Shown here: positions 41,256 through 63,937 of the stretch, one piece after another
Numbering within the stretch: position 1 is the stretch's first letter
Layout: each line of letters opens with the position of its first letter
Program-made: the position numbers and the translations under genes
Virus record (IMG/VR): IMGVR_UViG_3300030380_006483
DNA from: a virus
Length of the DNA: 64,000 nt
Direction: 5' to 3' (one strand)
Notes under the pieces: generated by a model
The model's input: the letters and a program-made list of their open reading frames with translations, nothing else
What the model was told of the DNA's origin: nothing
The model's database searches: none

Positions 41256-42267
41256 AGATATACTCAACAACTTGCATGAGGAGTCCAATTTAGAGCCCCT
41301 ACACTTAAACAGTAGGGTGCTCTTAATTGATTCTATGAACACGTTTTTGCGTTCATTTGCTATGATTCCCGCTATTAATCCACAAGGAAATCATGTTGGT
41401 GGTTTAGTTGGTTTTTTAAAATCATTAGGATATGTTATTAAACTAATTAGACCAACTAGAGTTATCTTAGTTTTTGATGGTCAAGGTAATATTACAAATC
41501 GTAGAAATACCTATTCTGAATATAAAGCAAATCGTCAAATAAAAAGAATTACAAATTTTAAAGTTTTCTCAACATTAGCAGAAGAATCTGATTCAATTGC
41601 AACACAAATGTTAAGATTATTAGATTATTTAAAATCATTGCCCGTTAATATATCAATAATTGATAAAATAGAGGCAGATGATACTATAGCTTACCTATCA
41701 CAAAAATTAAAAGATGATATTATTATCTATTCTGCTGATCAGGATTTTTTACAATTAGTAGATGATAGAATAACTGTATATTCACCTATTAAAAAGAAAT
41801 TTTATAAACCAAATGATGTTTATGAGCAATATGGTATGCATCCCTATAATTTTATTACAATGAAATGTTTAATGGGTGATAAATCTGATAATTTACCAGG
41901 TGTTAAGGGATTAGGTCCTAAAAAATTAATGAAATATTTTCCTGAAATAGCAGGTGAAAAAAGATTTACTTTACAAGAGGCATATCAAAAAGCAACTGAT
42001 AAAGTAGAAGAACATGGAATATATGGTAATGTTCATTTATTTAAAAGTCAATTAGAAATTAATTATGAACTAATGTCTTTAAAAAATATTGAATTATTAG
42101 ATAAAGATCAAAAAGAACTAGATGAATTAATAGATTCTCCTCCTTATGATTTTAATAAAAAAAGATTTTTAGAGATGTATGAAAAAGATTTATTAGGTAG
42201 AGGAATTCCTAATACAGAATTTTGGTTAGCAGAAGTTTTTTCGTATCTTCAAAAATATAAAAAATGA
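41239..42267 (+). CDS. 5'-3' exonuclease / T4 RNase H / flap endonuclease
   Basis: LLIDSMN, VFDG, YKANR, EADDTIAY, SADQDFLQL and GDKSDNLPGVKGLGPK motifs. Confidence 0.93.
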   Translation: MKELYKDILNNLHEESNLEPLHLNSRVLLIDSMNTFLRSFAMIPAINPQGNHVGGLVGFLKSLGYVIKLIRPTRVILVFDGQGNITNRRNTYSEYKANRQIKRITNFKVFSTLAEESDSIATQMLRLLDYLKSLPVNISIIDKIEADDTIAYLSQKLKDDIIIYSADQDFLQLVDDRITVYSPIKKKFYKPNDVYEQYGMHPYNFITMKCLMGDKSDNLPGVKGLGPKKLMKYFPEIAGEKRFTLQEAYQKATDKVEEHGIYGNVHLFKSQLEINYELMSLKNIELLDKDQKELDELIDSPPYDFNKKRFLEMYEKDLLGRGIPNTEFWLAEVFSYLQKYKK

Positions 42268-42836
42268 ATATAAAAAATATTTTTCCTACTGGTATTATTA
42301 CCCATCAGGTATCACCTCAAATAGCAGATTATGTAGAGGATTTAGTAGTACCTAGGTTAAAGCATTTAGATTTTAATAATGAAAATTATTCTGATTTTTT
42401 TAATAAAGAAGAAATATTAAATATTAACGAAGTCCCTTTACTAAAGAAAGAAATTGAAAAGTGTATAAATTTTTTCGAAAAAACTTATTCAATTCCAAAT
42501 AAAACTAAAATAAATTCATATTGGGTTCAAGATTATAAATTTAATAATTTTCATGGTATTCATAATCATGGTAGGAATGAAATATCTATAGTATATTGGA
42601 TAAGAGCCAATGAAGATGCCGGTATGTTTTGTCTGAGTAACCCTTCTCCATTTACTAATCTTTGGTATTCACCATATGCATTTTATGATAATTCAAATAA
42701 CCCTTATATTAAAGATAAATATGTTATCCAACCAACTAAAGGTTCTCTTATAGCATTTCCAAGTTTTTTAAATCATGAGGTCCTCCCAGGGGGAAAAAAT
42801 TGTATAAGAACTACTTTAGCTTTAAATTCTCTATAA
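42264..42836 (+). CDS. 2OG-Fe(II) oxygenase-like protein 1
   Basis: WVQ...HGIHNH...SIVYWI...GSLIAFPSFLNHEV...RTTLALN jelly-roll motifs. Confidence 0.8.
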   Translation: MNIKNIFPTGIITHQVSPQIADYVEDLVVPRLKHLDFNNENYSDFFNKEEILNINEVPLLKKEIEKCINFFEKTYSIPNKTKINSYWVQDYKFNNFHGIHNHGRNEISIVYWIRANEDAGMFCLSNPSPFTNLWYSPYAFYDNSNNPYIKDKYVIQPTKGSLIAFPSFLNHEVLPGGKNCIRTTLALNSL

Positions 42837-50000: not shown

Positions 50001-50564
50001 ATGAATAAGATCATACATCCTTTTCAATTTCCTATATATAGTAAAAAATTATCAAGTTCTAATTTTTTAAAAATAAAAAATGATGTAGATATATTTCTTC
50101 AAAATAATACTTTAACAACACCTATTAATTGGGATTGCAATACTTTAAGTAGTATAAATATCCCCCCAGATAAAAATATTAATAGCCCTACTTTAATAAA
50201 TGAAATTCATAAATCATCATTAGAGTATTATAAAACATGGGAATTTGAAAATAATTTTAATTTAACCCTTTATCATATGTGGGTTAATATAGCCTCCCCA
50301 GGAGATTATCAAGAAGTTCATCACCATATTCCTTCACTATTTAGTGGTGTTTTATATATAGATTGTTCTGAAAAAAGTGGAAATATTTCTTTTAGAAATC
50401 CTTTAAAATCTGAATTTGGTTTAATGGGAATTGAAAAAAATATTACAATTACCCCTGAAATGGGATTATTAATTTTATTTCCTTCTTGGTTAGAACATTC
50501 TGTATTTGAAAATAAATCAAATAAAAATAGAATATCAGTTAGTTTTAATATAAATAAAAAATGA
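50001..50564 (+). CDS. 2OG-Fe(II) oxygenase-like protein 2
   Basis: MWVN...QEVHHH...FSGVLYI...GLLILFPSWLEHSV...RISVSFN. Confidence 0.85.
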   Translation: MNKIIHPFQFPIYSKKLSSSNFLKIKNDVDIFLQNNTLTTPINWDCNTLSSINIPPDKNINSPTLINEIHKSSLEYYKTWEFENNFNLTLYHMWVNIASPGDYQEVHHHIPSLFSGVLYIDCSEKSGNISFRNPLKSEFGLMGIEKNITITPEMGLLILFPSWLEHSVFENKSNKNRISVSFNINKK

Positions 50565-50806: not shown

Positions 50807-51467
50807 TTTAGATAAAATTTTTAAAAGTATTTATGTTGAAAAAAAATGGGGTTATAAAGATAATGATGTTTTTTACTCTGGTATGGGGTCACATTATAAA
50901 GATCTAGTAAACCCATATATAAATTCTATTAAAAATTTTACTGAAAATTTTAAAGAAAAACTTAACGTAATTGATATAGGTTGTGGTGATTTTAATGTAG
51001 GTAAACAACTATTACCTTATTTTAATAATTATACTGCTGTAGACGTTGTAGATTCTTTAATTAAATATAATAAAAATAAATTTAAAAACTTAAATGTTAA
51101 TTTTCAAACCCTAAATATAACTAATCAAACTATTCCCTTTACTGATGTAATTATATTAAAACAAGTTTTGCAACATCTATCAAATCAAGATATTTTTAAT
51201 ATTCTAAAAAATATATATTTAAAAAGCAAATACATAATTCTTACAGAAAGTATACCTTATGATTCTTTTACTCCAAATTTAGACATTAAATCTGGAGTTA
51301 AAACAAGAGTTGCAGAAAATAATAGTGGAGTAGATATACTTTCTTTACCATTTAATTTCCCTATTCAAGAAAAATTTATTACATTAACATTAGAAGAAAT
51401 GATTGAATCAGGAGAGGATAAATTAAAATATTTAACACAAACAATAATATATAAGCAATATGAGTAA
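50799..51467 (+). CDS. Class I SAM-dependent methyltransferase
   Basis: VIDIGCGDF, YTAVDVV and KQVLQHL; start reassigned to ATG 50799. Confidence 0.8.
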   Translation: MGNLDKIFKSIYVEKKWGYKDNDVFYSGMGSHYKDLVNPYINSIKNFTENFKEKLNVIDIGCGDFNVGKQLLPYFNNYTAVDVVDSLIKYNKNKFKNLNVNFQTLNITNQTIPFTDVIILKQVLQHLSNQDIFNILKNIYLKSKYIILTESIPYDSFTPNLDIKSGVKTRVAENNSGVDILSLPFNFPIQEKFITLTLEEMIESGEDKLKYLTQTIIYKQYE

Positions 51468-51924
51468 ATTTATATCAACAAAAATTTTTGATGGTTTTAG
51501 TTGTGTCTTTAGACAATGGAAAGCTGAAACTACACACTGTAGATACCTTCATGGTTATGGGGTATCATTTAAATTATGGTTCGAAGGTGAACTAGATGAA
51601 AGAAATTGGGTATGGGATTTCGGAGGAATGAAAAGAGCAAAAGGTCAAATAGATGGAATGTCTCCTAAAGCATGGATGGATAATATGTTTGATCATACCT
51701 TCTTAGTAGCAGAAGATGATCCCTTTAAGGAATCATTTATAAGAATGGATGAAGCAGGAGTAGCTCAAGTCAGAATAGTACCAGCTACTGGGGCAGAGAA
51801 GTTTGCCGAATTTATCTTTAATAAATTAAACCCATTTATCCAGGAAGAAACAGATGGTAGAGTAAAAGTAATAAAAGTAGAATTTAGAGAGCACGGAAAA
51901 AATAGTGCAATATATGAAGATTAG
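51460..51924 (+). CDS. queD: 6-carboxy-5,6,7,8-tetrahydropterin synthase
   Basis: HCRYLHGY, WVWDFG, FDHT, TGAEKFA and terminal REHGKNSA: T-fold PTPS/QueD motifs. Confidence 0.9.
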   Translation: MSKFISTKIFDGFSCVFRQWKAETTHCRYLHGYGVSFKLWFEGELDERNWVWDFGGMKRAKGQIDGMSPKAWMDNMFDHTFLVAEDDPFKESFIRMDEAGVAQVRIVPATGAEKFAEFIFNKLNPFIQEETDGRVKVIKVEFREHGKNSAIYED

Positions 51925-52678
51925 TCACGAGGTACCTAAGGTTTTATTAAATAATAGTCGAGAATGGAATGATTATGATTATTGTTTACCTCATCTTTTA
52001 GATGAAGATGAACAATATAAAAATTTTTTCTATGAATCTAAAAAACAAGGTCGTTATATTATTATGGATAATTCACTTCATGAATTAGGTAAAGCATATA
52101 ATCACGAAAGATTATTACACTGGATAACAGAATTACAACCAAATGAATTTATAGTACCTGATGTTTGGATGAAACAAGCCCAAACTTGTGCTCAGGCAAA
52201 ATATTGGTTACAATTTAAATATCCTAAAAATACTAAAATAGTAGCTGTAGTACAAGGTGAAGATAAAGTTAAAGCACATTTATGTGCTAGTTTAATTAGA
52301 GATTTAGGATATAATAAACTTTGTATATCTTATGGTGCGGGTTGGTATGGTGATAATCCTTTAAATAAAGCCCTAGGTAGAATAAATTTTGTTAAAGAGT
52401 TGTTAGAAGATAAAAGATATAAAGATACTAAATTTCATTTATTAGGTTGTGCTGTACCTCAAGAGTTTGGTTGGTATAGAAATGAATCTCAAATAGAATC
52501 AATTGATACCTCAAACCCAATAATGGCAGCTTTAGAAGGAATTTCGTACACAAAAAGTGGTTTAATAGAAAAACCAAAAGCAAATATGAATACTCATTTT
52601 GATATTGAACCTGAAAAAATTGATTATAATAAAATATTAAAAAACGTAAAAAGATTTAGAACAATAAATGGTTTATAA
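51914..52678 (+). CDS. TGT-fold protein, candidate DpdA-like 7-deazaguanine transglycosylase
   Basis: IIMDNSLHE, FIVPDV, VAVVQG, FHLLG and SIDTS line up with TGT/DpdA barrel motifs; lies between queD and queC. Confidence 0.55.
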   Translation: MKISHEVPKVLLNNSREWNDYDYCLPHLLDEDEQYKNFFYESKKQGRYIIMDNSLHELGKAYNHERLLHWITELQPNEFIVPDVWMKQAQTCAQAKYWLQFKYPKNTKIVAVVQGEDKVKAHLCASLIRDLGYNKLCISYGAGWYGDNPLNKALGRINFVKELLEDKRYKDTKFHLLGCAVPQEFGWYRNESQIESIDTSNPIMAALEGISYTKSGLIEKPKANMNTHFDIEPEKIDYNKILKNVKRFRTINGL

Positions 52679-52866
52679 TGGCAGAAATAATTAGACATAT
52701 TAGTGGAATGTGTGGTGAACATTTTCACCCAAACATTTGGCACCTTTTATTAGGTGGGGTTGGAATAACAACTATTTTATCGTATATTAGTTTATACTTA
52801 AAATGTAAATTTAAAGCGTTTGCCTATACGCTTAATAATACCTGGCAAAAATTTAAATTAAAATAG
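52678..52866 (+). CDS. Small protein with one hydrophobic segment
   Basis: 62 aa with CGEHFHP motif; coupled to the upstream gene. Confidence 0.45.
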   Translation: MAEIIRHISGMCGEHFHPNIWHLLLGGVGITTILSYISLYLKCKFKAFAYTLNNTWQKFKLK

Positions 52867-52868
52867 AA

Positions 52869-53663
52869 ATGGCAAAAAATGTCGTAGTATCCTTATCTGG
52901 AGGGATGGATTCCTCAACTTTATTACTTAGATGTTTATCTGAGTATGATAACGTAACTGCTTTATCTTTTGATTATGGTCAAAAACATAGAGTAGAATTA
53001 GAAAGGGCTCAATCATTAATTAACTATGTTAATGAAAATGGGCAAAATGTAAATTACCAAGTTATTAAATTAGATGGTTTAGTTAATTTATTAGAATCAA
53101 ATTTAGTAGATGGGGGTGATGATGTACCTGAAGGACATTATGAAGAAGAAAATATGGTTGCAACTGTAGTACCTAATAGAAATAAAATATTTGCTTCTAT
53201 TACCCAAGCAGTAGCATTATCTATAGCAAATAAAACAGAAGAATCTTGTGATATTGCTTTAGGTATTCATGCTGGCGACCACGCAATTTATCCTGATTGT
53301 AGACAAGAATTTAGAGATGCTGATGATGCAGCATTTAGAGTTGGTAATTGGAACTCAGAAACTGTGGGTTACTTTACACCGTATTTAGAAACAGATAAAT
53401 TTGGAATACTACAAGATGGACAAATCCTTGTTAAGAACCTTGGAATTGATTTTAATGAAGTATATAGACGTACTAATACTTCTTATAAACCTTTCCCTAG
53501 CGGTAATAGCGATTATAAATCAGCGAGTTCAGTGGAAAGGATTGAAGCATTCATTAAATTGGGTGTCAGTGACCCTGTACAATATGAGGACGAAACTGGG
53601 CCGGTAGATTATGAAGTTGCGAGAAAACATGTTGAAAAGTTATTAGCAGAATATTCGGAATAA
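52869..53663 (+). CDS. queC: 7-cyano-7-deazaguanine synthase (Zn-site cysteines absent)
   Basis: SLSGGMDS PP-loop, FDYGQKH, VPNRN and HAGDHAIYPDCRQEF. Confidence 0.9.
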   Translation: MAKNVVVSLSGGMDSSTLLLRCLSEYDNVTALSFDYGQKHRVELERAQSLINYVNENGQNVNYQVIKLDGLVNLLESNLVDGGDDVPEGHYEEENMVATVVPNRNKIFASITQAVALSIANKTEESCDIALGIHAGDHAIYPDCRQEFRDADDAAFRVGNWNSETVGYFTPYLETDKFGILQDGQILVKNLGIDFNEVYRRTNTSYKPFPSGNSDYKSASSVERIEAFIKLGVSDPVQYEDETGPVDYEVARKHVEKLLAEYSE

Positions 53664-53927: not shown

Positions 53928-54446
53928 ATGGAAACAATAAATTTATTTCCCCAAATTTTAAAATCATTTAAGTATTCTAATAATACTAATTTTCTTTTAG
54001 AAGAAATAAATAAAATTAAAGCTTTATATCCAAATAAAGCTCCTTCTTTATTTAAAGATGCAATTTATACTTCTCCAAATTTTCTTTTTCAAAGTTATAA
54101 AAATTTTAAATTTTTAGAAAATGATATAAAATCATTAGTTTTAAAAAATTATAATAAAAATTGTAAAATTACTGATTCTTGGATTAATATATATTATAAA
54201 CATGGGTATAATGATTTCCATAACCATTTTAAAAATGATCTAGCAGGGGTATTATATTTAAAGGTTCCAAAATCTCATCCTGGGATTAATTTTCATAATA
54301 AACATAACCCTATTCAAATATTTAATTATAAACCTCCCTCTAATACAATAATCTTCTTTGATGGTGATCAATATCACAGTTCTTTTCCTAACCCTGAAAA
54401 TACTGAAAAAATAATTATAGCGTTTAATATATCTTTTAAAGATTAA
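53928..54446 (+). CDS. 2OG-Fe(II) oxygenase-like protein 3
   Basis: SWIN...NDFHNH...AGVLYL...IIFFDG..YHSS...IAFN. Confidence 0.75.
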   Translation: METINLFPQILKSFKYSNNTNFLLEEINKIKALYPNKAPSLFKDAIYTSPNFLFQSYKNFKFLENDIKSLVLKNYNKNCKITDSWINIYYKHGYNDFHNHFKNDLAGVLYLKVPKSHPGINFHNKHNPIQIFNYKPPSNTIIFFDGDQYHSSFPNPENTEKIIIAFNISFKD

Positions 54447-54498
54447 TATATTTAAACAAAAAGTTTACAATATTTATAGATATAAATTTATATATTAG

Positions 54499-56334
54499 AT
54501 GGCTACATTAACCAATAGGACTATAAGATCGACTTACGATCAACTTTTACAACTAGAAGATAATTTAATTCAAGACGGTTTTGGAACTCATTCTTTAAGT
54601 GGTTCCTATAATCTTACTGGAAGTCAATTTATATCTGGTAATCTTCATATTAATGGTACAGCTTCTATTGATTATTTAGTTTCTTCTTATGAATCATCAT
54701 CTATTATTTTTAGTTCAGGTTCAACAAAATTCGGAGATGACACTTCAGATACCCATGAATTTACGGGAAGTGTTCTAATAAGTGGTTCCGCTTTTAGTAC
54801 AAATTGGAGTGGATCCTTTACTGGTTCATTTATTGGTTTAGCAGATTCTTCATCTAATGCGACAAGAGCAGTTACTGCTTCACAAGCTGATAGAGCTACA
54901 ACATCTTCCCTTGCTAATAAGGCCTCTAATCTACAAATAGTTGGAGAAGATTCAAGTGCAGCCACTCATTATGTTCTTTTTGGCCCTAACTCATCAGGAG
55001 AATCTGATGTTAATGCAGATGGTAATTTAAATTATGTACCCAATACTGAAACTTTAACAGTTACTAAAGTAATAGGTAATTTAGAAGGAACAGCATCAAA
55101 TGCTGATACAGCATCTGTATTATTAGGTTCTGTAATTTCGGCTTCTCATTGTGAGACCGCTTCACTAGCAATTTCAACATCAGTAGTTAATGTTACTTCA
55201 ACTTCATTTGCAAACAGTGGTGATGGTCCATTTACTGGTTCATTTTCATCCAGTTTACCTTCATTATTATCCGGTTCATTTACAGGTTCCTTTACTGGCT
55301 CATTAGTTGGTAATACATCAGTTAGTAACATACTACAAACTGGTACTACTCAAACAACGGGATCTAATACTATTTCTGGGTCATTAACAATAACAGGAAG
55401 TTCAACTTTAGCAGTAAGAATAACTGGTAGTACAGCTTTAACAGGAAGTCTATTACAAAGTGGCAGTATTGTATCAACTGGAAGTTTATTACAAAAAGGT
55501 AGTACACAAATTTCAGGTTCTACTCTTTTATCAGGTTCATTACTTTTAACAGGTAGTAGTACCCTGGCATTAAGAGTTAGCGGTAGTACAGCTTTAACGG
55601 GTAGCTTACTACATAGTGGTAGTACAGCCCTAACGGGGAGTTTATTACAAAGTGGTAGTATTGCATTAACTGGAAGTTTATTACAGATTGGTACTACACA
55701 AACTACTGGATCTAATATTATATCTGGATCATTATTAATAACAGGTAGTTCTGCAATAGGACTTAGAATGTCTGGAAGTACGGCATTAACGGGTAGTGTT
55801 TTCCAAACAGGATCACTTAATGTAACTGGTAGTACTAATTTATCTGGATCTTTAGTAATAGTAGGAAATATTAATACGGGACAGGGTGTTACAGAAGTAT
55901 ATTTACAAAACCAAAATTTAAGAACAGCTGATTCAGTACAATTTAATGGACTAGGAGTTGGAACAGCACCATCAGGAGTAGCAGGAGCTATTTTAGCTAC
56001 TAATGATGTTGTAGCATTTGCTTCTTCAGATGAAAGATTAAAGGAAAATCTAGAACCAATTGGAAGTGCTACAGAAAAAATAGGACAATTAACTGGTTAT
56101 ACATTTGATTGGATTCCAATGGAAGGAATTCATGTACATTCAGGACATGATGTTGGAATTATTGCTCAAGAAGTAGAAAAGGTACTTCCTGAAGTTGTAG
56201 AAACAAGAAAAAATGGTTATAAAGCTGTTAAATATGAAAAACTTACAGCATTACTTATACAAGCCCTTAACGAACAACAAAAAGAAATTGATAACCTTAA
56301 AAGTAAGGTTGGATCGTTAGAAAATCGTTTGTAA
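54499..56334 (+). CDS. Orphan fibre protein with [ST]GS repeats and S74 chaperone
   Basis: Repeats and S74 domain nearly identical in places to 18826 and 23428; ATATTTAT at 54470. Confidence 0.85.
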   Translation: MATLTNRTIRSTYDQLLQLEDNLIQDGFGTHSLSGSYNLTGSQFISGNLHINGTASIDYLVSSYESSSIIFSSGSTKFGDDTSDTHEFTGSVLISGSAFSTNWSGSFTGSFIGLADSSSNATRAVTASQADRATTSSLANKASNLQIVGEDSSAATHYVLFGPNSSGESDVNADGNLNYVPNTETLTVTKVIGNLEGTASNADTASVLLGSVISASHCETASLAISTSVVNVTSTSFANSGDGPFTGSFSSSLPSLLSGSFTGSFTGSLVGNTSVSNILQTGTTQTTGSNTISGSLTITGSSTLAVRITGSTALTGSLLQSGSIVSTGSLLQKGSTQISGSTLLSGSLLLTGSSTLALRVSGSTALTGSLLHSGSTALTGSLLQSGSIALTGSLLQIGTTQTTGSNIISGSLLITGSSAIGLRMSGSTALTGSVFQTGSLNVTGSTNLSGSLVIVGNINTGQGVTEVYLQNQNLRTADSVQFNGLGVGTAPSGVAGAILATNDVVAFASSDERLKENLEPIGSATEKIGQLTGYTFDWIPMEGIHVHSGHDVGIIAQEVEKVLPEVVETRKNGYKAVKYEKLTALLIQALNEQQKEIDNLKSKVGSLENRL

Positions 56335-56344
56335 ATTACCTTTA

Positions 56345-57454
56345 ATGAGTTATAATATTTTAGGAATTAACAGCAGTCATAATGGCTCAGTTTGTGTTTT
56401 ATGTGATGGGGAAATTGATTTTTTTGTAGAAGAAGAAAGATTTTCTAGAAATAAACATGAAGATACACCTGTAGAAATTTTAAAATATGTTGCTTCTAAA
56501 TATAAAATTGATGAAATTGCTATTGGTGGTTTAGAAATTCTTTTTGAAGCAAATGCTTCAAAAATTTATCAAAATTATTTAAAACTTTTATTCAAAAATA
56601 CTCCACTTACTAATTTATTAGGATCCCATCATCTTTGCCATGCTTTTTCTAGCTTTAGCAGTTCAGGTTTTAATAAAGCTTTATGTGTAGTTATAGATGG
56701 GTCTGGAAGTTTATTATATAGAAAAGAGGATGAAAAATTAATAGGAGTAGAAACTGAAAGTATTTTTACTTTTAAATATCCTACAAATATAAGCACTATA
56801 TATAAATCTTATAAAACTTTTAATCCTAATGATGATAAAAGTACAGATAGTAAATTAATGAATTTTAATATTACTTTAGGAAAATTATATGAAAGTATTA
56901 CTACTAAATTATTTGGACATTGGGTGTATGCCGGTAAGACTATGGGTTTATCTTCTTATGGAAAATATGACAAAAATATTCCTTCATTAATAATAAACCA
57001 AAGAGCTAATCCTAAATTTTTAGCAGGAAAAACTACAACTAATATTAAAATGGATCTTAATGATGTTGAAGGTACCATAAATACAAAGTATGATTATTTA
57101 TTTAAAGAAGAATTAAAGTCTAATATATGTTATCATTTACAAAATGAGATACAAGAAGTTGTAGGAGATATAATAGAAAAATATGTAAAAAAAACAGGAT
57201 TAAAAAAAGTTTGTGGCTCCGGAGGTTATTTTTTAAACTGTGTATCAAACTATTATTTAAAAAAAAGATTTCCTGATATAGATTTTTATTTTGACCCAAT
57301 ATCAAATGATGCAGGTATAGCATTAGGTGCTGCTAAATTATTGTGGCATATGAGAAAAAATGATACAACCATAAGACCTCAAAAAACATTATATAATGGG
57401 CCAAAATATACTAATAAAGAAATTTATAAAAAAATTCAAGAATATTTGGATTAG
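56345..57454 (+). CDS. Carbamoyltransferase (NodU/CmcH) N-terminal Kae1-like domain only, copy 1
   Basis: HNGSVC...EEERFSR, HHLCHA, IDGSG, GKTMGLSSYG, GGYFLNCVSNY and NDAGIALGAA; stops after the LYNGPKY linker. Confidence 0.9.
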   Translation: MSYNILGINSSHNGSVCVLCDGEIDFFVEEERFSRNKHEDTPVEILKYVASKYKIDEIAIGGLEILFEANASKIYQNYLKLLFKNTPLTNLLGSHHLCHAFSSFSSSGFNKALCVVIDGSGSLLYRKEDEKLIGVETESIFTFKYPTNISTIYKSYKTFNPNDDKSTDSKLMNFNITLGKLYESITTKLFGHWVYAGKTMGLSSYGKYDKNIPSLIINQRANPKFLAGKTTTNIKMDLNDVEGTINTKYDYLFKEELKSNICYHLQNEIQEVVGDIIEKYVKKTGLKKVCGSGGYFLNCVSNYYLKKRFPDIDFYFDPISNDAGIALGAAKLLWHMRKNDTTIRPQKTLYNGPKYTNKEIYKKIQEYLD

Positions 57455-57476
57455 TTATATAGTTATATTATATTGG
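57445..57476 (+). promoter_or_regulatory. Putative Bacteroidota-type promoter for queE
   Basis: TTTG-N20-TATATTGG. Confidence 0.5.
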
Positions 57477-57492
57477 GACTAATATTAGTCCA

Positions 57493-57522
57493 AGTGACAG
57501 TAAAACCACTATAAAAAATTAA
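57493..57522 (+). promoter_or_regulatory. Candidate preQ1-I-like pseudoknot leader of queE
   Basis: AGUG/CACU stem, loop UAA able to pair with tail UUA, and AUAAAAAA tract, ending 3 nt before the queE ATG. Confidence 0.35.
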
Positions 57523-57525
57523 CAT

Positions 57526-58299
57526 ATGCTTAAAAGAATAGACGATTATTCTAAACGTCTCCCAGTATTAGAATTATACACAGCAGTACAATCGGAGGGA
57601 TCCAGACAAGGATATCCTACTATTGTAGTTAGAACAACAGGCTGTACACACAGATGTTATTTTGGAGAAGGTGGATGGTGTGATAGCTGGTATACATCAA
57701 TACATCCTGAAAAAGGAAAATATAATTTTCAAGATATTATTGATATGTACGATAAACATCCCCATATAAAGGAGATGATGTTAACAGGAGGATCACCAAC
57801 AATGCATCCTGCTTTAGTAAATGAATTAACACACCTAGCAAATGAAAGAAATATTTTCATTACCATCGAAACTGAGGGATCTCATTTCCTTCCCACTGAC
57901 TTTCCTATTGGTCTCCTTAGTATTAGCCCTAAATTCAGTAATTCAGTTCCTACTCTCGGTGCTACAACTCCTCAAGGACATACTGTGGAGCAGAAGATGA
58001 TTGATAGACATAACAAGTATAGATTAAATAAAGAAGCTATAAAAAAGTCTATTGAATATCATAATGATTACCATATTAAACCCGTATTAGATAAAGATTT
58101 AACTATGGTAGGTGAAGTAGAAGAATTCATTAAAGAACTAGACATTCCAGATCATAAAATTTGGGCAATGCCAGCAGGTGATGATAGGGAATCATTATTT
58201 GAAAGTTATGGTCCTGTAATGAACTTTGTAAGGGATAGAGGTTGGAGATATACCGGTAGATCCCATATAATGGCCTTTGATACAGAAAGAGAGGTTTAA
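57526..58299 (+). CDS. queE: 7-carboxy-7-deazaguanine synthase (radical SAM)
   Basis: ELYTAVQSEG, VRTTGCTHRC...WCDS (Cx3Cx7C), LTGGSP, TIETEG and SISPK. Confidence 0.9.
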   Translation: MLKRIDDYSKRLPVLELYTAVQSEGSRQGYPTIVVRTTGCTHRCYFGEGGWCDSWYTSIHPEKGKYNFQDIIDMYDKHPHIKEMMLTGGSPTMHPALVNELTHLANERNIFITIETEGSHFLPTDFPIGLLSISPKFSNSVPTLGATTPQGHTVEQKMIDRHNKYRLNKEAIKKSIEYHNDYHIKPVLDKDLTMVGEVEEFIKELDIPDHKIWAMPAGDDRESLFESYGPVMNFVRDRGWRYTGRSHIMAFDTEREV

Positions 58300-58434
58300 A
58301 TGGATAAGGAAGAAGCACTCCAAATTTTAGAAGAAATAAAAGAAAATGTAAATGTCTGCTGTGCCGTTACTATGGAACCAGAAGATGTATTAGAATTAAT
58401 AGATAAATTAGAAAGTTATATAAATGAACAATAG
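58300..58434 (+). CDS. Unlisted 44 aa acidic protein
   Basis: MDKEEALQILEEIKENVNVCCAVTMEPEDVLELIDKLESYINEQ*; fills the queE-folE gap. Confidence 0.5.
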   Translation: MDKEEALQILEEIKENVNVCCAVTMEPEDVLELIDKLESYINEQ

Positions 58435-59116
58435 AAAACAACAACACACAGATTTAGAATCTGTACCAGTAGGTTACGCAAATGGTGTAGCACCTGGATT
58501 TCCTTTAACAGATAAGGAAAAACAAAAAATGATAGATCGTGCTGCAAAAGCATATGGTAAATTCTTAACTGAATTAAAATGTGATTGGGAAAATGATCCT
58601 AATTCGGCTGATACACCAAGACGTGTAGCTAAAGCCTATGTAAATGATTTATGGGAAGGTAGATATACTGCTATGAGTGAAGTAACATCTTTCCCAAGTG
58701 ATGGTTATGATGGTATAGTAATAGAAAGAAATATACCAATTACATCAATGTGTTCTCACCACCACCAAACTATAAAAGGTTTAGTACATATAGGTTATAT
58801 CGCAGATGAAGATGGTAGAGTAGTTGGATTATCTAAATTAAATAGGATAGTAGAATTATTTGGTAGAAGAGGAGCAATACAAGAACAATTAACATCAGCG
58901 ATTCACAATGCTGTAAACACTATTTGTACGAATAATAAAGGTGTTATTGTTACAGTAGTAGCTACACATAATTGTGTTAGTTGTAGAGGAGTAAAACATC
59001 ATGGAGCTTCAATGGTTACAACAAAAGCATCTGGTGTATTTATGCAAAATGAAAACTTAGCTAGAAAGGAGTTTTTTGATTCAATTAAAGTTAATAATGG
59101 AAATCATCCTGTATAA
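58424..59116 (+). CDS. folE: GTP cyclohydrolase I
   Basis: DTPRRVAK, SMCSHHH, VGLSKLNR, QEQLT and HNCVSCRGV. Confidence 0.95.
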   Translation: MNNRKQQHTDLESVPVGYANGVAPGFPLTDKEKQKMIDRAAKAYGKFLTELKCDWENDPNSADTPRRVAKAYVNDLWEGRYTAMSEVTSFPSDGYDGIVIERNIPITSMCSHHHQTIKGLVHIGYIADEDGRVVGLSKLNRIVELFGRRGAIQEQLTSAIHNAVNTICTNNKGVIVTVVATHNCVSCRGVKHHGASMVTTKASGVFMQNENLARKEFFDSIKVNNGNHPV

Positions 59117-59553
59117 TGGTAATAGAATTAAATGATAAAGCATTCCTATCATGGGATGACATAGAAAAACAAGTTGATAAACTTGTAGAACAAATAAATA
59201 AAATGGATAAAAAACCATTTTACATTTATGGTGTGCCTCGTGGAGGAGCCATTCCAGCTGTATGGTTATCTCATAAAACTGGTATAAAATATCAACAAAT
59301 TAATTCATCCCAAATATCAAAATCAGCAGATTTATCTCATGTATTGATAGTAGATGATATTTGTGATTCAGGAGAAACAATACAAAAACTTAAAGAAGAT
59401 TTCCCTAAGTGTTTAACTGCAACTTTATATCATAAAGAATCAGCAATTGATAAACCAGATATTTATGGAGAAATATCCACGTATAATTGGTTATATTTTC
59501 CTTGGGAAAACCAACAATCCTCAGAAGTAAGAGATAACACATATGGGTTATAA
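59116..59553 (+). CDS. Type I phosphoribosyltransferase (Gpt/Hpt-like)
   Basis: GVPRGG, PRPP loop LIVDDICDSGET and WLYFPWE. Confidence 0.88.
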   Translation: MVIELNDKAFLSWDDIEKQVDKLVEQINKMDKKPFYIYGVPRGGAIPAVWLSHKTGIKYQQINSSQISKSADLSHVLIVDDICDSGETIQKLKEDFPKCLTATLYHKESAIDKPDIYGEISTYNWLYFPWENQQSSEVRDNTYGL

Positions 59554-60607
59554 TATTCTAGGAGTTACTCCTGGTCATAATGGTTCTATAGCTTTAGTTT
59601 CAAACGGAAAATTAGTTTTTTATTTAGAAGAAGAAAGATTATCTAAGGTAAAAAAAGATGCTAATCCATTAAAGACACTTTATTTTTCATTACAAAAATA
59701 TAAGATAGATGAAGTAGTATTATGTGGTGCCGGACGTCAATCACCAAACTTAGTCCGTAAAGGAGAGGATTTATATTATTCTATATCTAGAAAATTTTAT
59801 CCTAAAGTAAAATTCACTAGTTATGAAGATCATCATCATCTAACACATGCAGCTTCTTCATTTTATACTTCTGGTTTTCAAAAATCTTTAGGAGTAGTAA
59901 TTGATGCCCAAGGATCCAATTTTAATTATAAAGGAGAAAAAATATTTGAAAATGATTCTTTATTTTATTGTGAATATCCTAATAATATTAATCCAATCCA
60001 TAAAATATATCTTTCTGATTCTATTAGTCATTCAACTAAACAAGAAAAAATTACACCCTTTTTTTCAACAGCAAAGGTTTATGAAGCAGTAAGTGAATAT
60101 TTAAATTTTCATGAAGAAGAGGGTAAAACTATGGGTTTATCTTCTTATGGTAAGTCTAATTCTTTTATTTTAGATTTTTTAAAGGATGGAATAATAAACC
60201 CTAAATATTATACACATGAAAAAACTTATGGTTCTATATACCCAAAAATGAAGTTCCCTAAAAATATCCCTCCTAAAGATATAGCATGGGAAATTCAAAA
60301 TAAATCCCAACAAATAGTAGGTGATTATATAGAAAAAGGAATTAAAGAAACAGGATTAAAACAAGTTTGTTGCGCTGGAGGTTATTTTTTAAACTGTGTA
60401 TCAAACTATTATTTAAAAAAAAGATTTCCTGATATAGATTTCTATTTTGACCCAATATCCCATGATGGTGGAACCTCAATTGGAGCAGCTTTATATAGAT
60501 GGTACAACCACTCTCAGGATAAGAGTATAAGACCTAGAAAAAATTTGTATAATGGTTTTAAATATTCTAAAAAAGAATTAAAAAAAATAATTAAAAAATA
60601 TTTATAA
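59543..60607 (+). CDS. Carbamoyltransferase N-terminal domain only, copy 2
   Basis: Same motif set (HHLTHA, IDAQG, GKTMGLSSYG, GGYFLNCVSNY, HDGGTSIGAA); stops after LYNGFKY. Confidence 0.9.
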   Translation: MGYNILGVTPGHNGSIALVSNGKLVFYLEEERLSKVKKDANPLKTLYFSLQKYKIDEVVLCGAGRQSPNLVRKGEDLYYSISRKFYPKVKFTSYEDHHHLTHAASSFYTSGFQKSLGVVIDAQGSNFNYKGEKIFENDSLFYCEYPNNINPIHKIYLSDSISHSTKQEKITPFFSTAKVYEAVSEYLNFHEEEGKTMGLSSYGKSNSFILDFLKDGIINPKYYTHEKTYGSIYPKMKFPKNIPPKDIAWEIQNKSQQIVGDYIEKGIKETGLKQVCCAGGYFLNCVSNYYLKKRFPDIDFYFDPISHDGGTSIGAALYRWYNHSQDKSIRPRKNLYNGFKYSKKELKKIIKKYL

Positions 60608-60609
60608 TT

Positions 60610-60996
60610 ATGAAAGACTTTAATTCAAAAGATAAATCTAAAGGGTTAGGAGATACAATAGCAAAAATTACTAATGCTACTGGTTTAGATAAAATAGCCG
60701 ATGCTGTAGCTAAAGCAGCAGGCGCCGAAGATTGTGGTTGTAATAAAAGGAGAAAAACATTAAATGAACTTTTTCCTTACACTAAAAAAACAGAAATTAA
60801 AAAACCACATATTAATACTAAACCTTTAGATAAAATTACTGGAAAATATGAGGTTATTCAAAAAATTCATTGTACCTTACCAGAATTAGGAAGGATAACT
60901 TTTAATAAAGGTTCTGTTTTATTAATAGATAAAAAACACCCTTTATATAAAGATATTTCTTTTTACTATAAAAAAAATATTATTAAAAAAATATAA
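60610..60996 (+). CDS. Hypothetical phage protein (GLGDT...CGC motif)
   Basis: GLGDTIAKIT.ATG...EDCGCNKRRKTLN. Confidence 0.6.
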   Translation: MKDFNSKDKSKGLGDTIAKITNATGLDKIADAVAKAAGAEDCGCNKRRKTLNELFPYTKKTEIKKPHINTKPLDKITGKYEVIQKIHCTLPELGRITFNKGSVLLIDKKHPLYKDISFYYKKNIIKKI

Positions 60997-62736
60997 ATGG
61001 CATATAATATTCTAGGAATTAATCCTGGCCATAATGGTTCTGCCGCCGTAATTTCAGATGGTAAGTTAGTTTATTATTTAGAAGAAGAAAGATTAACAAA
61101 AGAAAAAAGAGATGGAAATCCTTTTAAAACTATAATCGATATTTGTTCTAAGTTTTCTATTAACGAACTAATAATAGGGGGAACAAACACCCCAGCTGAA
61201 AGGTCAACTTTATCTTATACTAAAGAAAATCCCTATTTTTCTCTTGTAAGAAAATTAAATTTAGGAATAGAAGACTATACAAATTTATCCAGCAGCCACC
61301 ATTTATTGCATGCTTTTAGTAGCTTACATAATTCCCCATTTCAATCTGCTGCTGTTATAGTAGTAGATGGATGTGGGTCTTGGCTACACTATAATGATAT
61401 TGCTCCTTTTTCTTCACTTGCAATAGAAGAAGGTAAAAATAATAATGTTCATGAAGCTGAAAGTATATATGAGATAAATACAAATAAATTTCCAATTGAA
61501 GAGGGGATAGAAAAACATTATGTTAATTATATTAGTAATAATATTAATGTTGAAACTAAATTTATTAATAGAAATCCTGGAATAGTTAAAGTATATGAAG
61601 GTATAACCGATTATTTAGGTTTTCATCCTTTAGATGCAGGAAAAGTAATGGGTTTATCTTCTTATGGTAAGTCAAATCCAAACATTCCTCCTTTATTTGT
61701 AAATCATAAAGGTAATTTAGATATATTTAAACCATCATACCCAGCAAAATGTGAATTATTAACTAACAACACCCCAGTACTACATGGTAATCAAAAAACC
61801 AAAGACTTTCATCATGATAAATCAAAACTTAATATGGTTTATGCTGATTTAGCTTATGAAGTACAAACCCAAACAGAAAAAGAAATACATCACTTAATTG
61901 AAAAAGCTATAAATTTAACAGGTAATAATAATATTTGTATTACTGGAGGGTATGGGTTAAATTGTGTAGCTAATTATAACATGAAAAAAAAATTCCCTAA
62001 GATAAACTTTTTTCATGATCCTGTATCTTTTGATGGGGGAATATCAATAGGTGCAGCATACTTAGGATGGTTAATAAAAAAAGAGAAAAACGATAAATCA
62101 AAATCATTTTCACTTTATTTAGGCCCTAAATATTCTTTAAAAAAATATAAAAAACAAATTAAAAATTATTCAAAAATGTTTAACACTTATAAAGTAAATT
62201 ATAAAGATGTAGCTAAAATAATTTCAGAAAGAAATATAGTTACAATATTCCAAGGCAGATCAGAGGCTGGTCCTCGTGCTTTAGGAAATAGGTCCATTTT
62301 ATACGATCCAACAGACCCTAATGGTAAGGATTTTGTAAATAAAGTTAAAAAAAGAGAATGGTTTAGACCATTTGCTGGTACTGTTTTATTAGAAAAAGCT
62401 AATGAATATTTTGATATGGCTGGTTTAAAAGAATCTCCGTTTATGATGTATGCAATGGATGTTTGGCCTGATAAACAAGATAAAATTCCTTGTATTACCC
62501 ACGTAGATGGTACTTGTAGAATCCAAACATTAACCGAAGAACAAAATCCACATTATTATAAATTAATTCAAGAATTTGAAAAAATAACAGGTGTACCTAT
62601 TTTATTTAATACTTCATTTAATTTAGCAGGTGATCCACTTGTAGAGACAATTGAAGATGCATTAGAAACAATGCTTAAAAGTGAAATGAAATATATGTAT
62701 GTTCCTGAATTAGAAATGCTTTTAGAGAAAAAATAA
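60997..62736 (+). CDS. Full-length carbamoyltransferase (NodU/CmcH/TobZ family)
   Basis: N-domain motifs plus C-terminal YrdC-like domain: FQGRSEAGPRALGNRSIL, VKKREWFRPFA, THVDGTCRIQT and LFNTSFN. Confidence 0.95.
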   Translation: MAYNILGINPGHNGSAAVISDGKLVYYLEEERLTKEKRDGNPFKTIIDICSKFSINELIIGGTNTPAERSTLSYTKENPYFSLVRKLNLGIEDYTNLSSSHHLLHAFSSLHNSPFQSAAVIVVDGCGSWLHYNDIAPFSSLAIEEGKNNNVHEAESIYEINTNKFPIEEGIEKHYVNYISNNINVETKFINRNPGIVKVYEGITDYLGFHPLDAGKVMGLSSYGKSNPNIPPLFVNHKGNLDIFKPSYPAKCELLTNNTPVLHGNQKTKDFHHDKSKLNMVYADLAYEVQTQTEKEIHHLIEKAINLTGNNNICITGGYGLNCVANYNMKKKFPKINFFHDPVSFDGGISIGAAYLGWLIKKEKNDKSKSFSLYLGPKYSLKKYKKQIKNYSKMFNTYKVNYKDVAKIISERNIVTIFQGRSEAGPRALGNRSILYDPTDPNGKDFVNKVKKREWFRPFAGTVLLEKANEYFDMAGLKESPFMMYAMDVWPDKQDKIPCITHVDGTCRIQTLTEEQNPHYYKLIQEFEKITGVPILFNTSFNLAGDPLVETIEDALETMLKSEMKYMYVPELEMLLEKK

Positions 62737-62740
62737 AATT

Positions 62741-63937
62741 ATGAAAATATTAGGATTTAATCCTTCTCATCATAGCTCTACTTGTATAGTAAATAATGGT
62801 GAAATAGAATACTTCATCCAAGAAGAAAGAATAAATAAAATGAAATATGTTTCTTTCCCAATGGAATCTTTTATAGAACTCCTAAAAAACAGAACCCCAG
62901 ATGTAGTATGTTTCGCTGGTGCTAGTATATCTTTTCCACTTTGTGGCCAATCAGATGACAACCTTTGGCATGTAATAACTGATATTTACTTAAAAGAAAA
63001 TTATGAATTTTTTGATTTTTCTTTTAGTTATGATCAAAAGAATAAACCTAATGATGGAGGATTCCATCATATTGCACATGCTTCTAGTGCTTTTTACAAT
63101 TCAGGCTTTAAAGAAGCTTTATGTTTAGTAGCAGATGGATTAGGATCTATTATTTTAAATAGTGGTACTGAAACTGAAACTCTTTTTAAATTTTCATATC
63201 CATCTTTTTTTGAAATACTACATAAAAAACTATATATGGACAACTTTCCTAAACATGTATCAGAATCTCTCCCAGATAATATGACAATAACAACAAAAGT
63301 AAACCTAAGTAGAGTTTATGAAACTGTAACAATGTGGTTAGGGTTTAGTAGGAATGATGCTGGTAAAACTATGGGTTTATCTTCTTATGGAAAATATAAT
63401 AAAAATATTCCTAATTTTTTAGATAAAGAAGGAGATGGAGACCCCAATGTAATTATTGTTGACCGTGATAGAAAAGGAGAATATGAAATTGAAAAAGGAT
63501 ATCAGTGTACTTTTATAGATAAAGAAAAGAATCCTTATTTAAAAAACCAAGATGCAACAAAATGGCACCATAATAAATCAAATATAACAGACTTAGAAAA
63601 AGACGTAGCTTGGAAAGTTCAAGATGAAACACAAAAAAGAATAGGTGATATAATAGAAAAAGGAATTAAAGAAACAGGATTAAAACAAGTTTGTTGTAGT
63701 GGGGGTTATTTTTTAAATTGTGTTGCAAACTATTATCTTGTAAAAAGATTTCCTGATATAGATTTTTATTTTGACCCAATAGCTAATGATGCTGGTACAG
63801 CTATGGGAATAGCTCAATTAGTTTATCATCACAAAACTAGAGATACTACTATAAGACCTTTAAAATCTTTATATTTAGGTCCAAAATATCCAAAAGAAGA
63901 ACTATTAAAAGAAATTAAAAAATATGTGGATAACTAA
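62741..63937 (+). CDS. Carbamoyltransferase N-terminal domain only, copy 3
   Basis: HHIAHA, ADGLG, GKTMGLSSYG, GGYFLNCVANY and NDAGTAMG; stops after LYLGPKY. Confidence 0.9.
   Translation: MKILGFNPSHHSSTCIVNNGEIEYFIQEERINKMKYVSFPMESFIELLKNRTPDVVCFAGASISFPLCGQSDDNLWHVITDIYLKENYEFFDFSFSYDQKNKPNDGGFHHIAHASSAFYNSGFKEALCLVADGLGSIILNSGTETETLFKFSYPSFFEILHKKLYMDNFPKHVSESLPDNMTITTKVNLSRVYETVTMWLGFSRNDAGKTMGLSSYGKYNKNIPNFLDKEGDGDPNVIIVDRDRKGEYEIEKGYQCTFIDKEKNPYLKNQDATKWHHNKSNITDLEKDVAWKVQDETQKRIGDIIEKGIKETGLKQVCCSGGYFLNCVANYYLVKRFPDIDFYFDPIANDAGTAMGIAQLVYHHKTRDTTIRPLKSLYLGPKYPKEELLKEIKKYVDN

What the first reader, a model, noticed from the sequence alone, without database searches (positions are those of the whole stretch)
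56345..63937. Split carbamoylation system: one full carbamoyltransferase plus three intact N-domain-only paralogs
Seen: four NodU/CmcH paralogs in 7.6 kb. Three end within about 15 aa of the same LYxGxKY linker and lack the C-terminal domain, yet keep every Kae1-like motif (HHxxH, DxxG, GKxMGLSSYG, GGYxLNCVxNY, D...G) with no internal stops. The segments between motifs are highly divergent. Established: in TobZ the YrdC-like C-domain makes carbamoyl-AMP and the Kae1-like N-domain transfers it to the acceptor; phage carbamoyltransferases that modify 5hmC are known, and NodU-type enzymes modify sugars. Inference: one activating module may serve several acceptor-specific transfer modules through hetero-oligomers. 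Possible targets are deazaguanine or hydroxylated bases in DNA, or fibre glycans. I know of no described system with this stoichiometry.
Basis: partly seen in the sequence, partly recalled or inferred. Interest (0 to 1): 0.85.

Follow-up and report, generated by a model that had tools for sequence, protein, structure and literature searches.

The report
One donor domain, several carbamoyl-transfer half-enzymes
A marine phage carries one complete carbamoyl-adding enzyme plus three intact, conserved copies of only its transfer half, and related phages carry the donor-activating half as a separate small gene, so one activating module probably feeds several different transferases whose targets (modified DNA bases or sugars) are still unknown.

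Summary
Window 56345-63937 holds four NodU/CmcH/TobZ-type genes. One is full length (579 aa, Kae1-like N plus YrdC-like C). Three are N-only (369, 354 and 398 aa) and keep the catalytic His, the four Fe ligands and the nucleotide motifs.

- **A real family.** At least 180 marine homologues end 13-15 aa after the LYxGxKY motif. They fall into at least five old clades and evolve under purifying selection (dN/dS 0.2-0.4), like the N part of full enzymes.
- **Shared donor.** The C-domain is about 90% conserved (dN/dS 0.04-0.14). In syntenic relatives the slot holds a free-standing 186-aa C-domain beside two N-only genes. A complete 166-kb relative has only a split C + N pair. This supports one activating module acting in trans.
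- **Not shown.** Hetero-oligomers are untested, and the rest of this roughly 177-kb genome could not be searched.
- **Context.** The genes sit in a DpdA3/FolE/QueD/QueE/QueC/PRTase/MazG cluster shared with Flavobacterium phage immuto, in which I found no homologue of its QueF or DpdN in the stretches read. The acceptor is unknown; DNA or nucleotide tailoring is slightly favoured over glycans.

I found no published description. This scan noted similar split layouts on other DNA (e1-5358554, e1-5375803, e1-5774337).

The parts
56345..57454 (+). N1: stand-alone Kae1-like carbamoyltransferase N-domain protein (369 aa)
   Evidence: Pfam PF02543 at 1.6e-24 and no PF16861. It belongs to clade N1, 11 rows, all N-only, SH-aLRT 95. 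In relatives it always lies between the S74 fibre gene and QueE.
59543..60607 (+). N2: stand-alone Kae1-like N-domain protein (354 aa); its start overlaps the PRTase gene by 11 nt
   Evidence: Pfam PF02543 at 1.1e-22. It sits in its own N-only clade with L096, L098 and L099. Orthologue dN/dS is 0.20-0.39.
60610..60996 (+). unk128: conserved small basic protein of unknown function, packed between N2 and the full enzyme
   Evidence: No Pfam hit. Orthologues of 129-139 aa occupy the same slot in L087, L212 and L171. The Atlas lists only viral hypothetical clusters. No homologue was found in the 52 kb of phage immuto that I examined.
60997..62736 (+). NC: full-length class III carbamoyltransferase (579 aa); N-domain about 60997-62175, YrdC-like C-domain 62176-62733
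   Evidence: Pfam PF02543 at 3.3e-23 plus PF16861 at 9.5e-62. The C part is 86-93% identical to at least 120 other protein clusters. The free 186-aa C-domain of L212 aligns from Met394 to the end at 90% identity.
62741..63937 (+). N3: stand-alone Kae1-like N-domain protein (398 aa), 4 nt after the full enzyme
   Evidence: Pfam PF02543 at 1.4e-21. It belongs to clade N3, SH-aLRT 99, mostly genes lying directly after a full enzyme. The AlphaFold2 model has pLDDT 84 and its best PDB matches are TobZ, VtdB, GdmN and NovN.
51460..53663 (+). Context: QueD (51460-51924), DpdA3-like DNA transglycosylase (51905-52678), QueC (52869-53663)
   Evidence: PHROGs assigns QueD-like and QueC-like. The 257-aa protein matches the immuto DpdA at 6e-45 by phmmer.
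53928..56334 (+). Context: 2OG-Fe(II) oxygenase (53928-54446) and tail-fibre protein with S74 chaperone domain (54499-56334)
   Evidence: PHROGs; Pfam Peptidase_S74 at 1.3e-16.
57526..59553 (+). Context: QueE (57526-58299), FolE (58424-59116), phosphoribosyltransferase (59116-59553)
   Evidence: Pfam and PHROGs. All three have homologues in phage immuto.
63961..64000 (+). Context: start of the MazG-like (PRA-PH) pyrophosphohydrolase gene, cut by the window end
   Evidence: L001:11221-11724 is PF01503 at 2.3e-10. It matches the immuto 'hydrolase' at 1.6e-88.

Best explanation
This is a split carbamoyltransferase system with one shared donor module.

**Proposed mechanism.** The YrdC-like C-domain, here fused in the 579-aa enzyme, makes carbamoyl-AMP from carbamoyl phosphate and ATP. 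Four diverged Kae1-like transferases then each move the carbamoyl group to their own acceptor or position. These are the enzyme's own N-domain plus the stand-alone N1, N2 and N3. The three stand-alone proteins receive the adenylate in trans.

**What is shown.**
- The domain make-up of the four proteins.
- Conservation of the catalytic and nucleotide-binding residues.
- Purifying selection on the N-only copies.
- Free C-domain variants in the same genomic slot in relatives.

**What is inferred.**
- Supply in trans. Whether it happens by diffusion or by docking is open.
- The acceptor. My best guess is tailoring of DNA or nucleotides of the DpdA3 7-deazaguanine pathway in which the genes are embedded. 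In that reading these genes take the place of the QueF + DpdN step of the related Flavobacterium phage immuto.

**Odds.** I put shared trans supply at about 0.65. Given that, I put a DNA or nucleotide acceptor at about 0.5.
For: 1. **Catalytic residues kept.** All four proteins keep the TobZ catalytic His and the His/His/Asp/Asp Fe site. In 180 N-only homologues these are 178-180/180 conserved, as are GKxMGL..YG and GG..LNCV.NY.
2. **Fold.** The N3 model matches TobZ, VtdB, GdmN and NovN best.
3. **Old, stable clades.** N-only proteins form at least five old clades. The window's three copies fall in three different ones, apart from the clade of full enzymes.
4. **Selection.** dN/dS is 0.19-0.44 for N-only orthologues, 0.15-0.37 for the N part of full enzymes and 0.04-0.14 for the C part.
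5. **Free C-domain in the same slot.** L212 has unk129, then a 186-aa C-domain, then MazG, with N1 and N2 upstream. L171 has two N-only genes and one free C.
6. **Complete relative.** G003 has one free C and one N and no fused enzyme.
7. **Clean boundary.** The free C starts at the residue aligned with Met394 of the full enzyme, and the N-only proteins end just before it.
8. **One C-domain where counting is possible.** There is one in the window plus 10 kb. The 157,933-bp contig length is shared by one full enzyme and two N-only proteins, and L169 shows a third N-only gene on that contig. The 116,268-bp contig has one free C and two N-only genes.
9. **DNA context.** The cassette sits between PRTase/unk128 and MazG in a DpdA3-Que cluster in more than 15 contigs. 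Immuto shares the cluster but has QueF + DpdN and, in the 52 kb read, no carbamoyltransferase. A phage carbamoyltransferase acting on 5hmC in DNA co-occurs with PRA-PH.
Against: - Several related clusters show N-only genes but no C-domain within 10 kb (L087, L090, L098, L107, L133, L141). Only for one such genome did I find a full enzyme carrying that contig's length (157,933 bp) and lying far from the cluster.
- Only about 74 kb of this roughly 177-kb genome could be checked.
- In the solved enzymes the adenylate is made and used within one polypeptide. From memory, TobZ's two active sites face a shared chamber, which would not obviously release the adenylate.
- No chemically obvious acceptor exists on preQ0, ADG or CDG. 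I found no QueF homologue here or in G003.
- In other relatives the full enzyme + N3 pair sits beside a glycosyltransferase and a cupin (L169, L105, L132).
- The genome is rich in sugar-pathway genes, according to earlier notes that I did not check.
Confidence: 0.45

Rival explanations
1. The donor is shared in the same way, but the acceptors are sugars. The four transferases carbamoylate different hydroxyls of virion (fibre) glycans or host surface polysaccharide, as NodU and NolO do on Nod factors. The position inside the deazaguanine cluster would then be only synteny in a variable slot.
For: - The full enzyme + N3 pair lies next to Gly_transf_sug and a mannose-6-P-isomerase-type cupin in L169, L105 and L132.
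- A cupin and a PMM gene follow PolB in this genome.
- N1 always follows an S74 tail-fibre gene.
- The cassette's content varies between relatives like an accessory island.
- Earlier follow-ups on other phages favoured sugar decoration (e1-5358554, e1-5375803; unchecked here).
Against: - N1 and N2 hold conserved positions inside the Que/PRTase/MazG operon, in the replication module.
- The fibre gene stays in place in L033, which has no N1, so that adjacency is only synteny.
- The one experimentally characterised phage carbamoyltransferase I found acts on DNA.
Confidence: 0.3
2. The N-only proteins do not use the phage C-domain. They would take another acyl-adenylate, for example host TsaC-made threonylcarbamoyl-AMP or a QueC-type 7-carboxy-7-deazaguanine adenylate, and transfer that group instead.
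For: - Clusters with N-only genes but no C-domain nearby exist (L087, L090, L098, L141).
- Kae1/TsaD relatives use TC-AMP made by a separate protein (PMC9654439 abstract).
- QueC lies in the same cluster.
Against: - The N-only proteins are closest in sequence and fold to class III O-carbamoyltransferases, not to TsaD.
- Wherever a long stretch or whole genome could be read, a phage C-domain is present.
- No evidence exists for the alternative donors.
Confidence: 0.1
3. The N-only copies are non-catalytic partners of the full enzyme, as TsaB is to TsaD. They would scaffold or regulate it rather than transfer anything.
For: - Kae1-family proteins form heterodimers with paralogues; YgjD-YeaZ structures appear among the fold matches.
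- The genes are tightly packed, with 0-4 nt gaps between unk128, the full enzyme and N3.
Against: - The catalytic His and all four metal ligands are kept in 178-180 of 180 N-only proteins.
- Some relatives carry N-only genes and a free C-domain but no full enzyme to partner with.
Confidence: 0.05
4. The N-only genes are decaying remnants of duplicated full-length genes.
For: One relative has a fragmented N copy of 232 + 87 aa (L088).
Against: - dN/dS is 0.19-0.44, equal to the N part of full enzymes.
- The clades are old and stable.
- 166 of 180 proteins end 13-15 aa after the KY of the LYxGxKY motif.
- The same gene structures are called in independent assemblies.
Confidence: 0.02

Closest known systems
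Class III O-carbamoyltransferases TobZ, GdmN, NovN, VtdB (NodU/CmcH family; PDB 3VEN, 7VYJ, 9S2T, 7XB6)
   Same: They share the Kae1-like N-domain with the His/His/Asp/Asp Fe site and a catalytic His, and the YrdC-like domain that makes carbamoyl-AMP from carbamoyl phosphate and ATP. The 579-aa protein has this full architecture.
   Different: The known enzymes are single chains with one N per C. Here three N-domains are separate proteins, and in relatives the C-domain is separate too, giving one C for two to four N. The GdmN-type dimerisation domain is absent.
t6A system: TsaC/Sua5 (YrdC-like) plus TsaD/Kae1/Qri7
   Same: A YrdC-like protein makes an acyl-adenylate (TC-AMP) that a separate Kae1-like metalloprotein uses (PMC9654439 and PMC3814370 abstracts). 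This is the precedent for the two folds working as separate proteins.
   Different: It has one donor protein and one transferase, the group moved is threonylcarbamoyl, and the target is tRNA A37. The phage proteins are much closer to TobZ than to TsaD.
Phage 5-hydroxymethylcytosine carbamoyltransferase (MetaGPA study, PMC8670742)
   Same: It is a phage NodU/TobZ-type enzyme acting on DNA, and it co-occurs with a PRA-PH/MazG-like gene. A PRA-PH gene directly follows the cassette here.
   Different: That enzyme is one full-length 63-kDa protein linked to a thymidylate-synthase-family gene. No such gene is in this window or in the complete relative G003. No N-only forms were described in the passages I read.
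[quoted passage not shown]
   Same: It is the nearest cultured relative (recombinase 59% identical). It shares homologous DpdA3, QueC, QueD, QueE, FolE, PRTase, MazG-like and unk436 genes.
   Different: Immuto has QueF and the formyltransferase DpdN and, in the 52 kb I read, no carbamoyltransferase. I found no QueF or DpdN homologue in the window, in L001 or in the relatives' loci searched (L087-L090, L169, L171); carbamoyltransferase genes, unk128 and extra 2OG oxygenases are present instead.
T4-like cyanophages with one to three full-length 'Nol-like' carbamoyltransferases (e.g. S-SSM7, P-SSM2)
   Same: They are marine myoviruses with several paralogous carbamoyltransferases per genome.
   Different: The listed hits lie under genes annotated as carbamoyltransferase, and N- and C-domain places per record agree where I compared them (P-SSM2, two each). 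I saw no sign of N-only forms in cultured phages.
HypF reduced to its Kae1-like domain (Cupriavidus necator HypF1), as cited in earlier notes of this scan
   Same: A Kae1-like carbamoyl-transfer domain exists without its activating domains (a lead only, not checked here).
   Different: It belongs to a different family (hydrogenase maturation), is a single copy, and its acceptor is the HypE cysteine.

Membership tests
Class III O-carbamoyltransferase (NodU/CmcH/TobZ) | Kae1-like N-domain (Pfam PF02543) above the gathering score | tested here: met
   All four proteins score 78-88 bits against a cut-off of 24.
Class III O-carbamoyltransferase (NodU/CmcH/TobZ) | YrdC-like C-domain (Pfam PF16861) in the same chain | tested here: not met
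   It is met only by the 579-aa protein (208 bits). It is absent from the 369-, 354- and 398-aa proteins. Those three are therefore half-members: they carry the transfer domain only.
Class III O-carbamoyltransferase (NodU/CmcH/TobZ) | Fe site of two His and two Asp, plus a catalytic His (TobZ H14, H114, H118, D137, D338) | tested here: met
   The alignment to TobZ and the paralogue alignment show all five residues. They are conserved in 178-180 of 180 N-only homologues.
Class III O-carbamoyltransferase (NodU/CmcH/TobZ) | Fold of the transfer domain | tested here: met
   The N3 model has pLDDT 84. Foldseek's best matches are TobZ at 1e-16, then VtdB, GdmN and NovN, ahead of Kae1, TsaD and HypF.
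Class III O-carbamoyltransferase (NodU/CmcH/TobZ) | Carbamoyl-AMP formation and carbamoyl transfer activity | not testable with these tools
   This needs enzyme assays.
TsaD/Kae1 t6A transferase | Closest sequence family is TsaD/Kae1 | tested here: not met
   No TsaD/Kae1 Pfam family appears at E <= 0.01. PDB profile hits are all class III carbamoyltransferases. Kae1 and TsaD appear only as weaker fold matches.
Phage 5hmC carbamoylation system (PMC8670742) | Thymidylate-synthase-family hydroxymethylase on the same contig | tested here: not met
   No homologue is in the window or in L001. There is none in the complete relative G003. The TS of L089 looks like a canonical ThyA (PCH and FNIASY motifs, read from the sequence against my memory of ThyA).
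Phage 5hmC carbamoylation system (PMC8670742) | Co-occurring PRA-PH/MazG-like gene | tested here: met
   PF01503 lies directly after N3. The same gene is also present in immuto, where I found no carbamoyltransferase in the 52 kb read.
Phage 7-deazaguanine DNA modification (Dpd) cluster | DpdA-family transglycosylase plus FolE, QueD, QueE and QueC | tested here: met
   There is a DpdA3 homologue at 6e-45 to the immuto DpdA. FolE, QueD, QueE and QueC are assigned by Pfam and PHROGs.
Phage 7-deazaguanine DNA modification (Dpd) cluster | A role of the carbamoyltransferases in making the modified base | not testable with these tools
   The evidence is gene linkage only. No QueF homologue was found in the window, in L001 or in the relatives' loci searched, and there is no QueF family match in G003 or three other related records.

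The most novel reading that the evidence does not exclude
In Immutovirus-like marine phages, one YrdC-like carbamoyl-AMP synthase and a variable set of stand-alone Kae1-like transferases may build one or more unknown carbamoylated DNA hypermodifications on a 7-deazaguanine-substituted genome. The 2OG oxygenases and methyltransferase of the cluster may contribute. This would take the place of the QueF/DpdN route to fdPreQ1. The number of N-only genes would set how many positions or bases are decorated.
Probability: 0.25. Interest if true: 0.85.

Novelty: new variant of a known kind. Interest (0 to 1): 0.62.

Why it matters
Carbamoyltransferases of this class are treated as two-domain, single-chain enzymes. 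In a large, uncultured group of marine phages the two halves behave as separable parts. One very conserved donor module serves several fast-diverging transfer modules.

At least 180 N-only proteins were aligned here, and 1,630 protein clusters matched in the first search (that count includes full-length enzymes). If supply in trans is real, it gives a natural mix-and-match system for carbamoylation. It also gives a simple way to find new acceptor specificities.

The genes sit inside a DpdA3 7-deazaguanine cluster whose cultured relative replaces every G with fdPreQ1. They are therefore good candidates for an undescribed DNA hypermodification. The prediction is directly testable, with enzymes in trans and by a +43 Da search in nucleosides.

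Tried and rejected
- **Complex prediction.** The full enzyme with N3, both given as alignments, returned no verdict (ipSAE 0.01 and 0.00). This is not evidence either way.
- **Whole-genome search.** No genome is held for this window, and the JGI and ENA records behind L001 and L087-L089 are not held either. The count of C-domains outside 74 kb is therefore unknown.
- **Nearby phage records.** Megablast of the region against phage records found nothing. An exact-pattern search and a single-protein search of IMG/VR found nothing.
- **IMG/VR coverage.** A degenerate pattern for the N-only motif KETGLKQVC found only one contig, the one behind L171. This phage group is barely represented there.
- **N-MazG fusion.** In L033 an N-domain is fused to the MazG-like domain (confirmed). 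I tested whether this fusion recurs. None of the best 150 representatives spans both parts, so it is a one-off and weak evidence for a functional link.
- **Gene conversion.** The paralogues share a 56-nt block at 93% identity and 300-nt 3' blocks at 61-76%. There is no long identical tract.
- **Promoters and terminators.** The scan found no more sites than chance.
- **Charge.** N-only proteins are basic (median pI 8.5) against 5.4 for the N parts of full enzymes. The window's own full-enzyme N part is also basic (8.6). The contrast is confounded by genome composition and I dropped it.
- **ThyA adjacency.** One N-only clade lies next to a thymidylate synthase in L089. That enzyme looks like a canonical ThyA, so it is not evidence for hydroxymethyl-pyrimidine chemistry.

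Full report
**What is there.** The 7.6-kb stretch carries, on the + strand and almost without gaps, N1 (56345-57454, 369 aa), QueE, FolE, a phosphoribosyltransferase, N2 (59543-60607, 354 aa), a conserved 128-aa protein, the full enzyme NC (60997-62736, 579 aa) and N3 (62741-63937, 398 aa). Pfam places Carbam_trans_N in all four carbamoyltransferase genes and Carbam_trans_C only in NC. The short proteins are 34-40% identical to NC. tblastn finds four N-domains and one C-domain in the window plus 10 kb downstream, and nothing else. Eighteen contigs carry the 398-aa protein. The six places shown give the same gene lengths wherever their contigs reach.

**Are the half-enzymes functional?**
- A profile of N-only proteins hits TobZ, GdmN, NovN and VtdB in the PDB. 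The alignment puts the invariant H12, H96, H99, D118 and D322 on TobZ's catalytic His14 and its Fe ligands H114, H118, D137 and D338. These roles are described for GdmN and TobZ in PMC9633730.
- In 180 N-only proteins these residues are conserved in 178-180 cases, together with the nucleotide-binding motifs. 166 of the 180 end 13-15 residues after the KY of the motif.
- An AlphaFold2 model of N3 (pLDDT 84) matches TobZ best.
- A tree of N-domains puts N1, N2 and N3 in three different old clades made of N-only proteins. These are separate from the clade of full enzymes, which holds NC.
- Pairwise dN/dS is 0.19-0.44 for N-only orthologues and 0.15-0.37 for the N part of full enzymes. It is 0.04-0.14 for the C part, at similar dS.
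- The copies are therefore old, stable and selected, not remnants.

**Evidence for a shared donor module.**
- The C-domain of NC is 86-93% identical to that of at least 120 other full-length protein clusters, while the closest N parts are about 48% identical.
- Free-standing C-domain proteins of 183-193 aa are common, and the best are 85-93% identical to NC's C part.
- One of them (P0250) lies on a 116-kb contig in a cluster syntenic with the window: fibre, N1, QueE, 2OG, FolE, PRTase, N2, unk129, C (186 aa), MazG, unk435, 2OG, PolB.
- IMG/VR contig L171 has the same layout, with two N-only genes and one free C.
- A CheckV-complete 166-kb relative (G003) has one free C and one N and no fused enzyme.
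- The free C starts at the residue aligned with Met394 of NC, and the N-only proteins end just before it. The break is therefore a clean domain boundary.
- A gene-order map of more than 15 contigs shows a variable cassette between unk128 and MazG. It holds NC + N (window, L120, L127, L129, and probably L106, whose contig starts inside NC), C alone (L212, L171), C + N (L033), N genes alone (L090, L098, L133, L141) or nothing (L087, L107).
- For one genome type without a C in the cluster, a full enzyme shares its contig length (157,933 bp) and lies at 125 kb on that contig, next to another N-only gene.
- Cultured cyanophages instead carry one to three full-length copies.
- Together this supports one activating module serving several transferases in trans. 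It does not show how. The complex prediction gave no verdict. Diffusion of the adenylate, as for TC-AMP between TsaC and TsaD, is an equal option.

**Context and acceptor.** The nearest cultured phage is Flavobacterium phage immuto (recombinase 59% identical). Its DNA has every G replaced by fdPreQ1, made by DpdA3, FolE, QueD, QueE, QueC, QueF and DpdN (PMC10516641). The window has homologues of the immuto DpdA3 (6e-45), QueC, QueD, QueE, FolE, PRTase, MazG-like hydrolase and unk436. I found no homologue of QueF or DpdN in the window, in L001 or in the relatives' loci searched. Conversely, no homologue of the carbamoyltransferases, unk128 or the 2OG oxygenases turned up in the 52 kb of immuto I read. 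The complete relative G003 also lacks QueF and any thymidylate-synthase-family gene.

That pattern, the position in the replication module and the known 5hmC carbamoyltransferase that co-occurs with PRA-PH (PMC8670742) favour a DNA or nucleotide target. Several points argue the other way. There is no obvious acceptor group on preQ0, ADG or CDG. The NC + N3 pair lies beside a glycosyltransferase and a cupin in other relatives. The genome is rich in sugar genes according to earlier notes. The N-MazG fusion in L033 is real but not recurrent. I rate DNA or nucleotide slightly above glycan, and neither is shown.

**Novelty.** Full-text searches found no paper on stand-alone N or C halves of these enzymes in phages. 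Earlier notes of this scan describe similar split layouts on other DNA. These include two follow-ups on cyanophage and aquatic-phage half-enzymes, and first-reader notes on N/C/N and C-N-N-C-N arrays. I used them as leads. I checked only the L033 fusion and the DpdA3 call myself. The finding is a new variant of a known enzyme kind. It is widespread, untested biochemically, and here linked to a DNA-modification cluster.

**Limits.** Only about 74 kb of a genome estimated at 177 kb (from the window offsets) was searchable. Contig-length matching was used to tie proteins to the same long contig and is indirect, except where loci were fetched. dS is near saturation, so the dN/dS values are approximate.

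Noticed in passing
window 51905-52678: The unannotated 257-aa protein between QueD and QueC is a homologue of the DpdA3 transglycosylase of Flavobacterium phage immuto (phmmer 6e-45). I found no homologue of immuto's QueF or DpdN in the stretches searched, so the DNA base is probably a preQ0, ADG or CDG type or a derivative of one.
   Followed up: partly
window 60610-60996: A conserved 128-aa basic protein (GLGDTIAK...CGCN...RRKTLNE motif) always sits just upstream of the variable carbamoyltransferase cassette in relatives. It has no known family and no homologue in the immuto stretches I read.
   Followed up: partly
L033:6477-8686 (IMG/VR 3300020182_000008, complete 166 kb): This is a permuted split carbamoyltransferase: a free C-domain (189 aa) followed by an N-domain fused in frame to a MazG-like PRA-PH domain (546 aa). 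Pfam confirms both domains. No other fused representative appeared among the best 150 hits.
   Followed up: yes
window 62176-62733 and homologues: The YrdC-like C-domain is 86-93% identical across at least 120 protein clusters whose N-domains are only about 45-50% identical, at similar synonymous divergence. The Met at the domain junction (Met394) is at least 90% conserved in full enzymes and is the start codon of the free C-domain genes.
   Followed up: partly
L144:8108-13571: Three full-length carbamoyltransferase genes lie in tandem on one metagenome contig. This is the opposite solution to the one-C, many-N layout.
   Followed up: no
L088:1693-4203: A TonB-dependent receptor gene (Plug plus beta-barrel, 836 aa) lies inside the replication module of a related phage contig. 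It hints at a Bacteroidota host.
   Followed up: no
L001:15383-16912 (about 5.4 kb beyond the window end): A flavin-dependent Trp-halogenase-family gene (509 aa) lies directly after the family B DNA polymerase, followed by a cupin and a phosphomannomutase. The same trio is present in L033.
   Followed up: no
window 42264-42836, 50001-50564, 53928-54446; L001:13009-13599: Several 2OG-Fe(II) oxygenase genes (PF13759, PF13640) are scattered through the replication and deazaguanine cluster. They recur in relatives but have no homologue in the 52 kb of immuto examined.
   Followed up: partly
L087:17875-19639 and L005:5935-7686: The family B DNA polymerase is called as two genes (exonuclease part and polymerase part) in some relatives, but as one 583-aa gene in this phage.
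   Followed up: no
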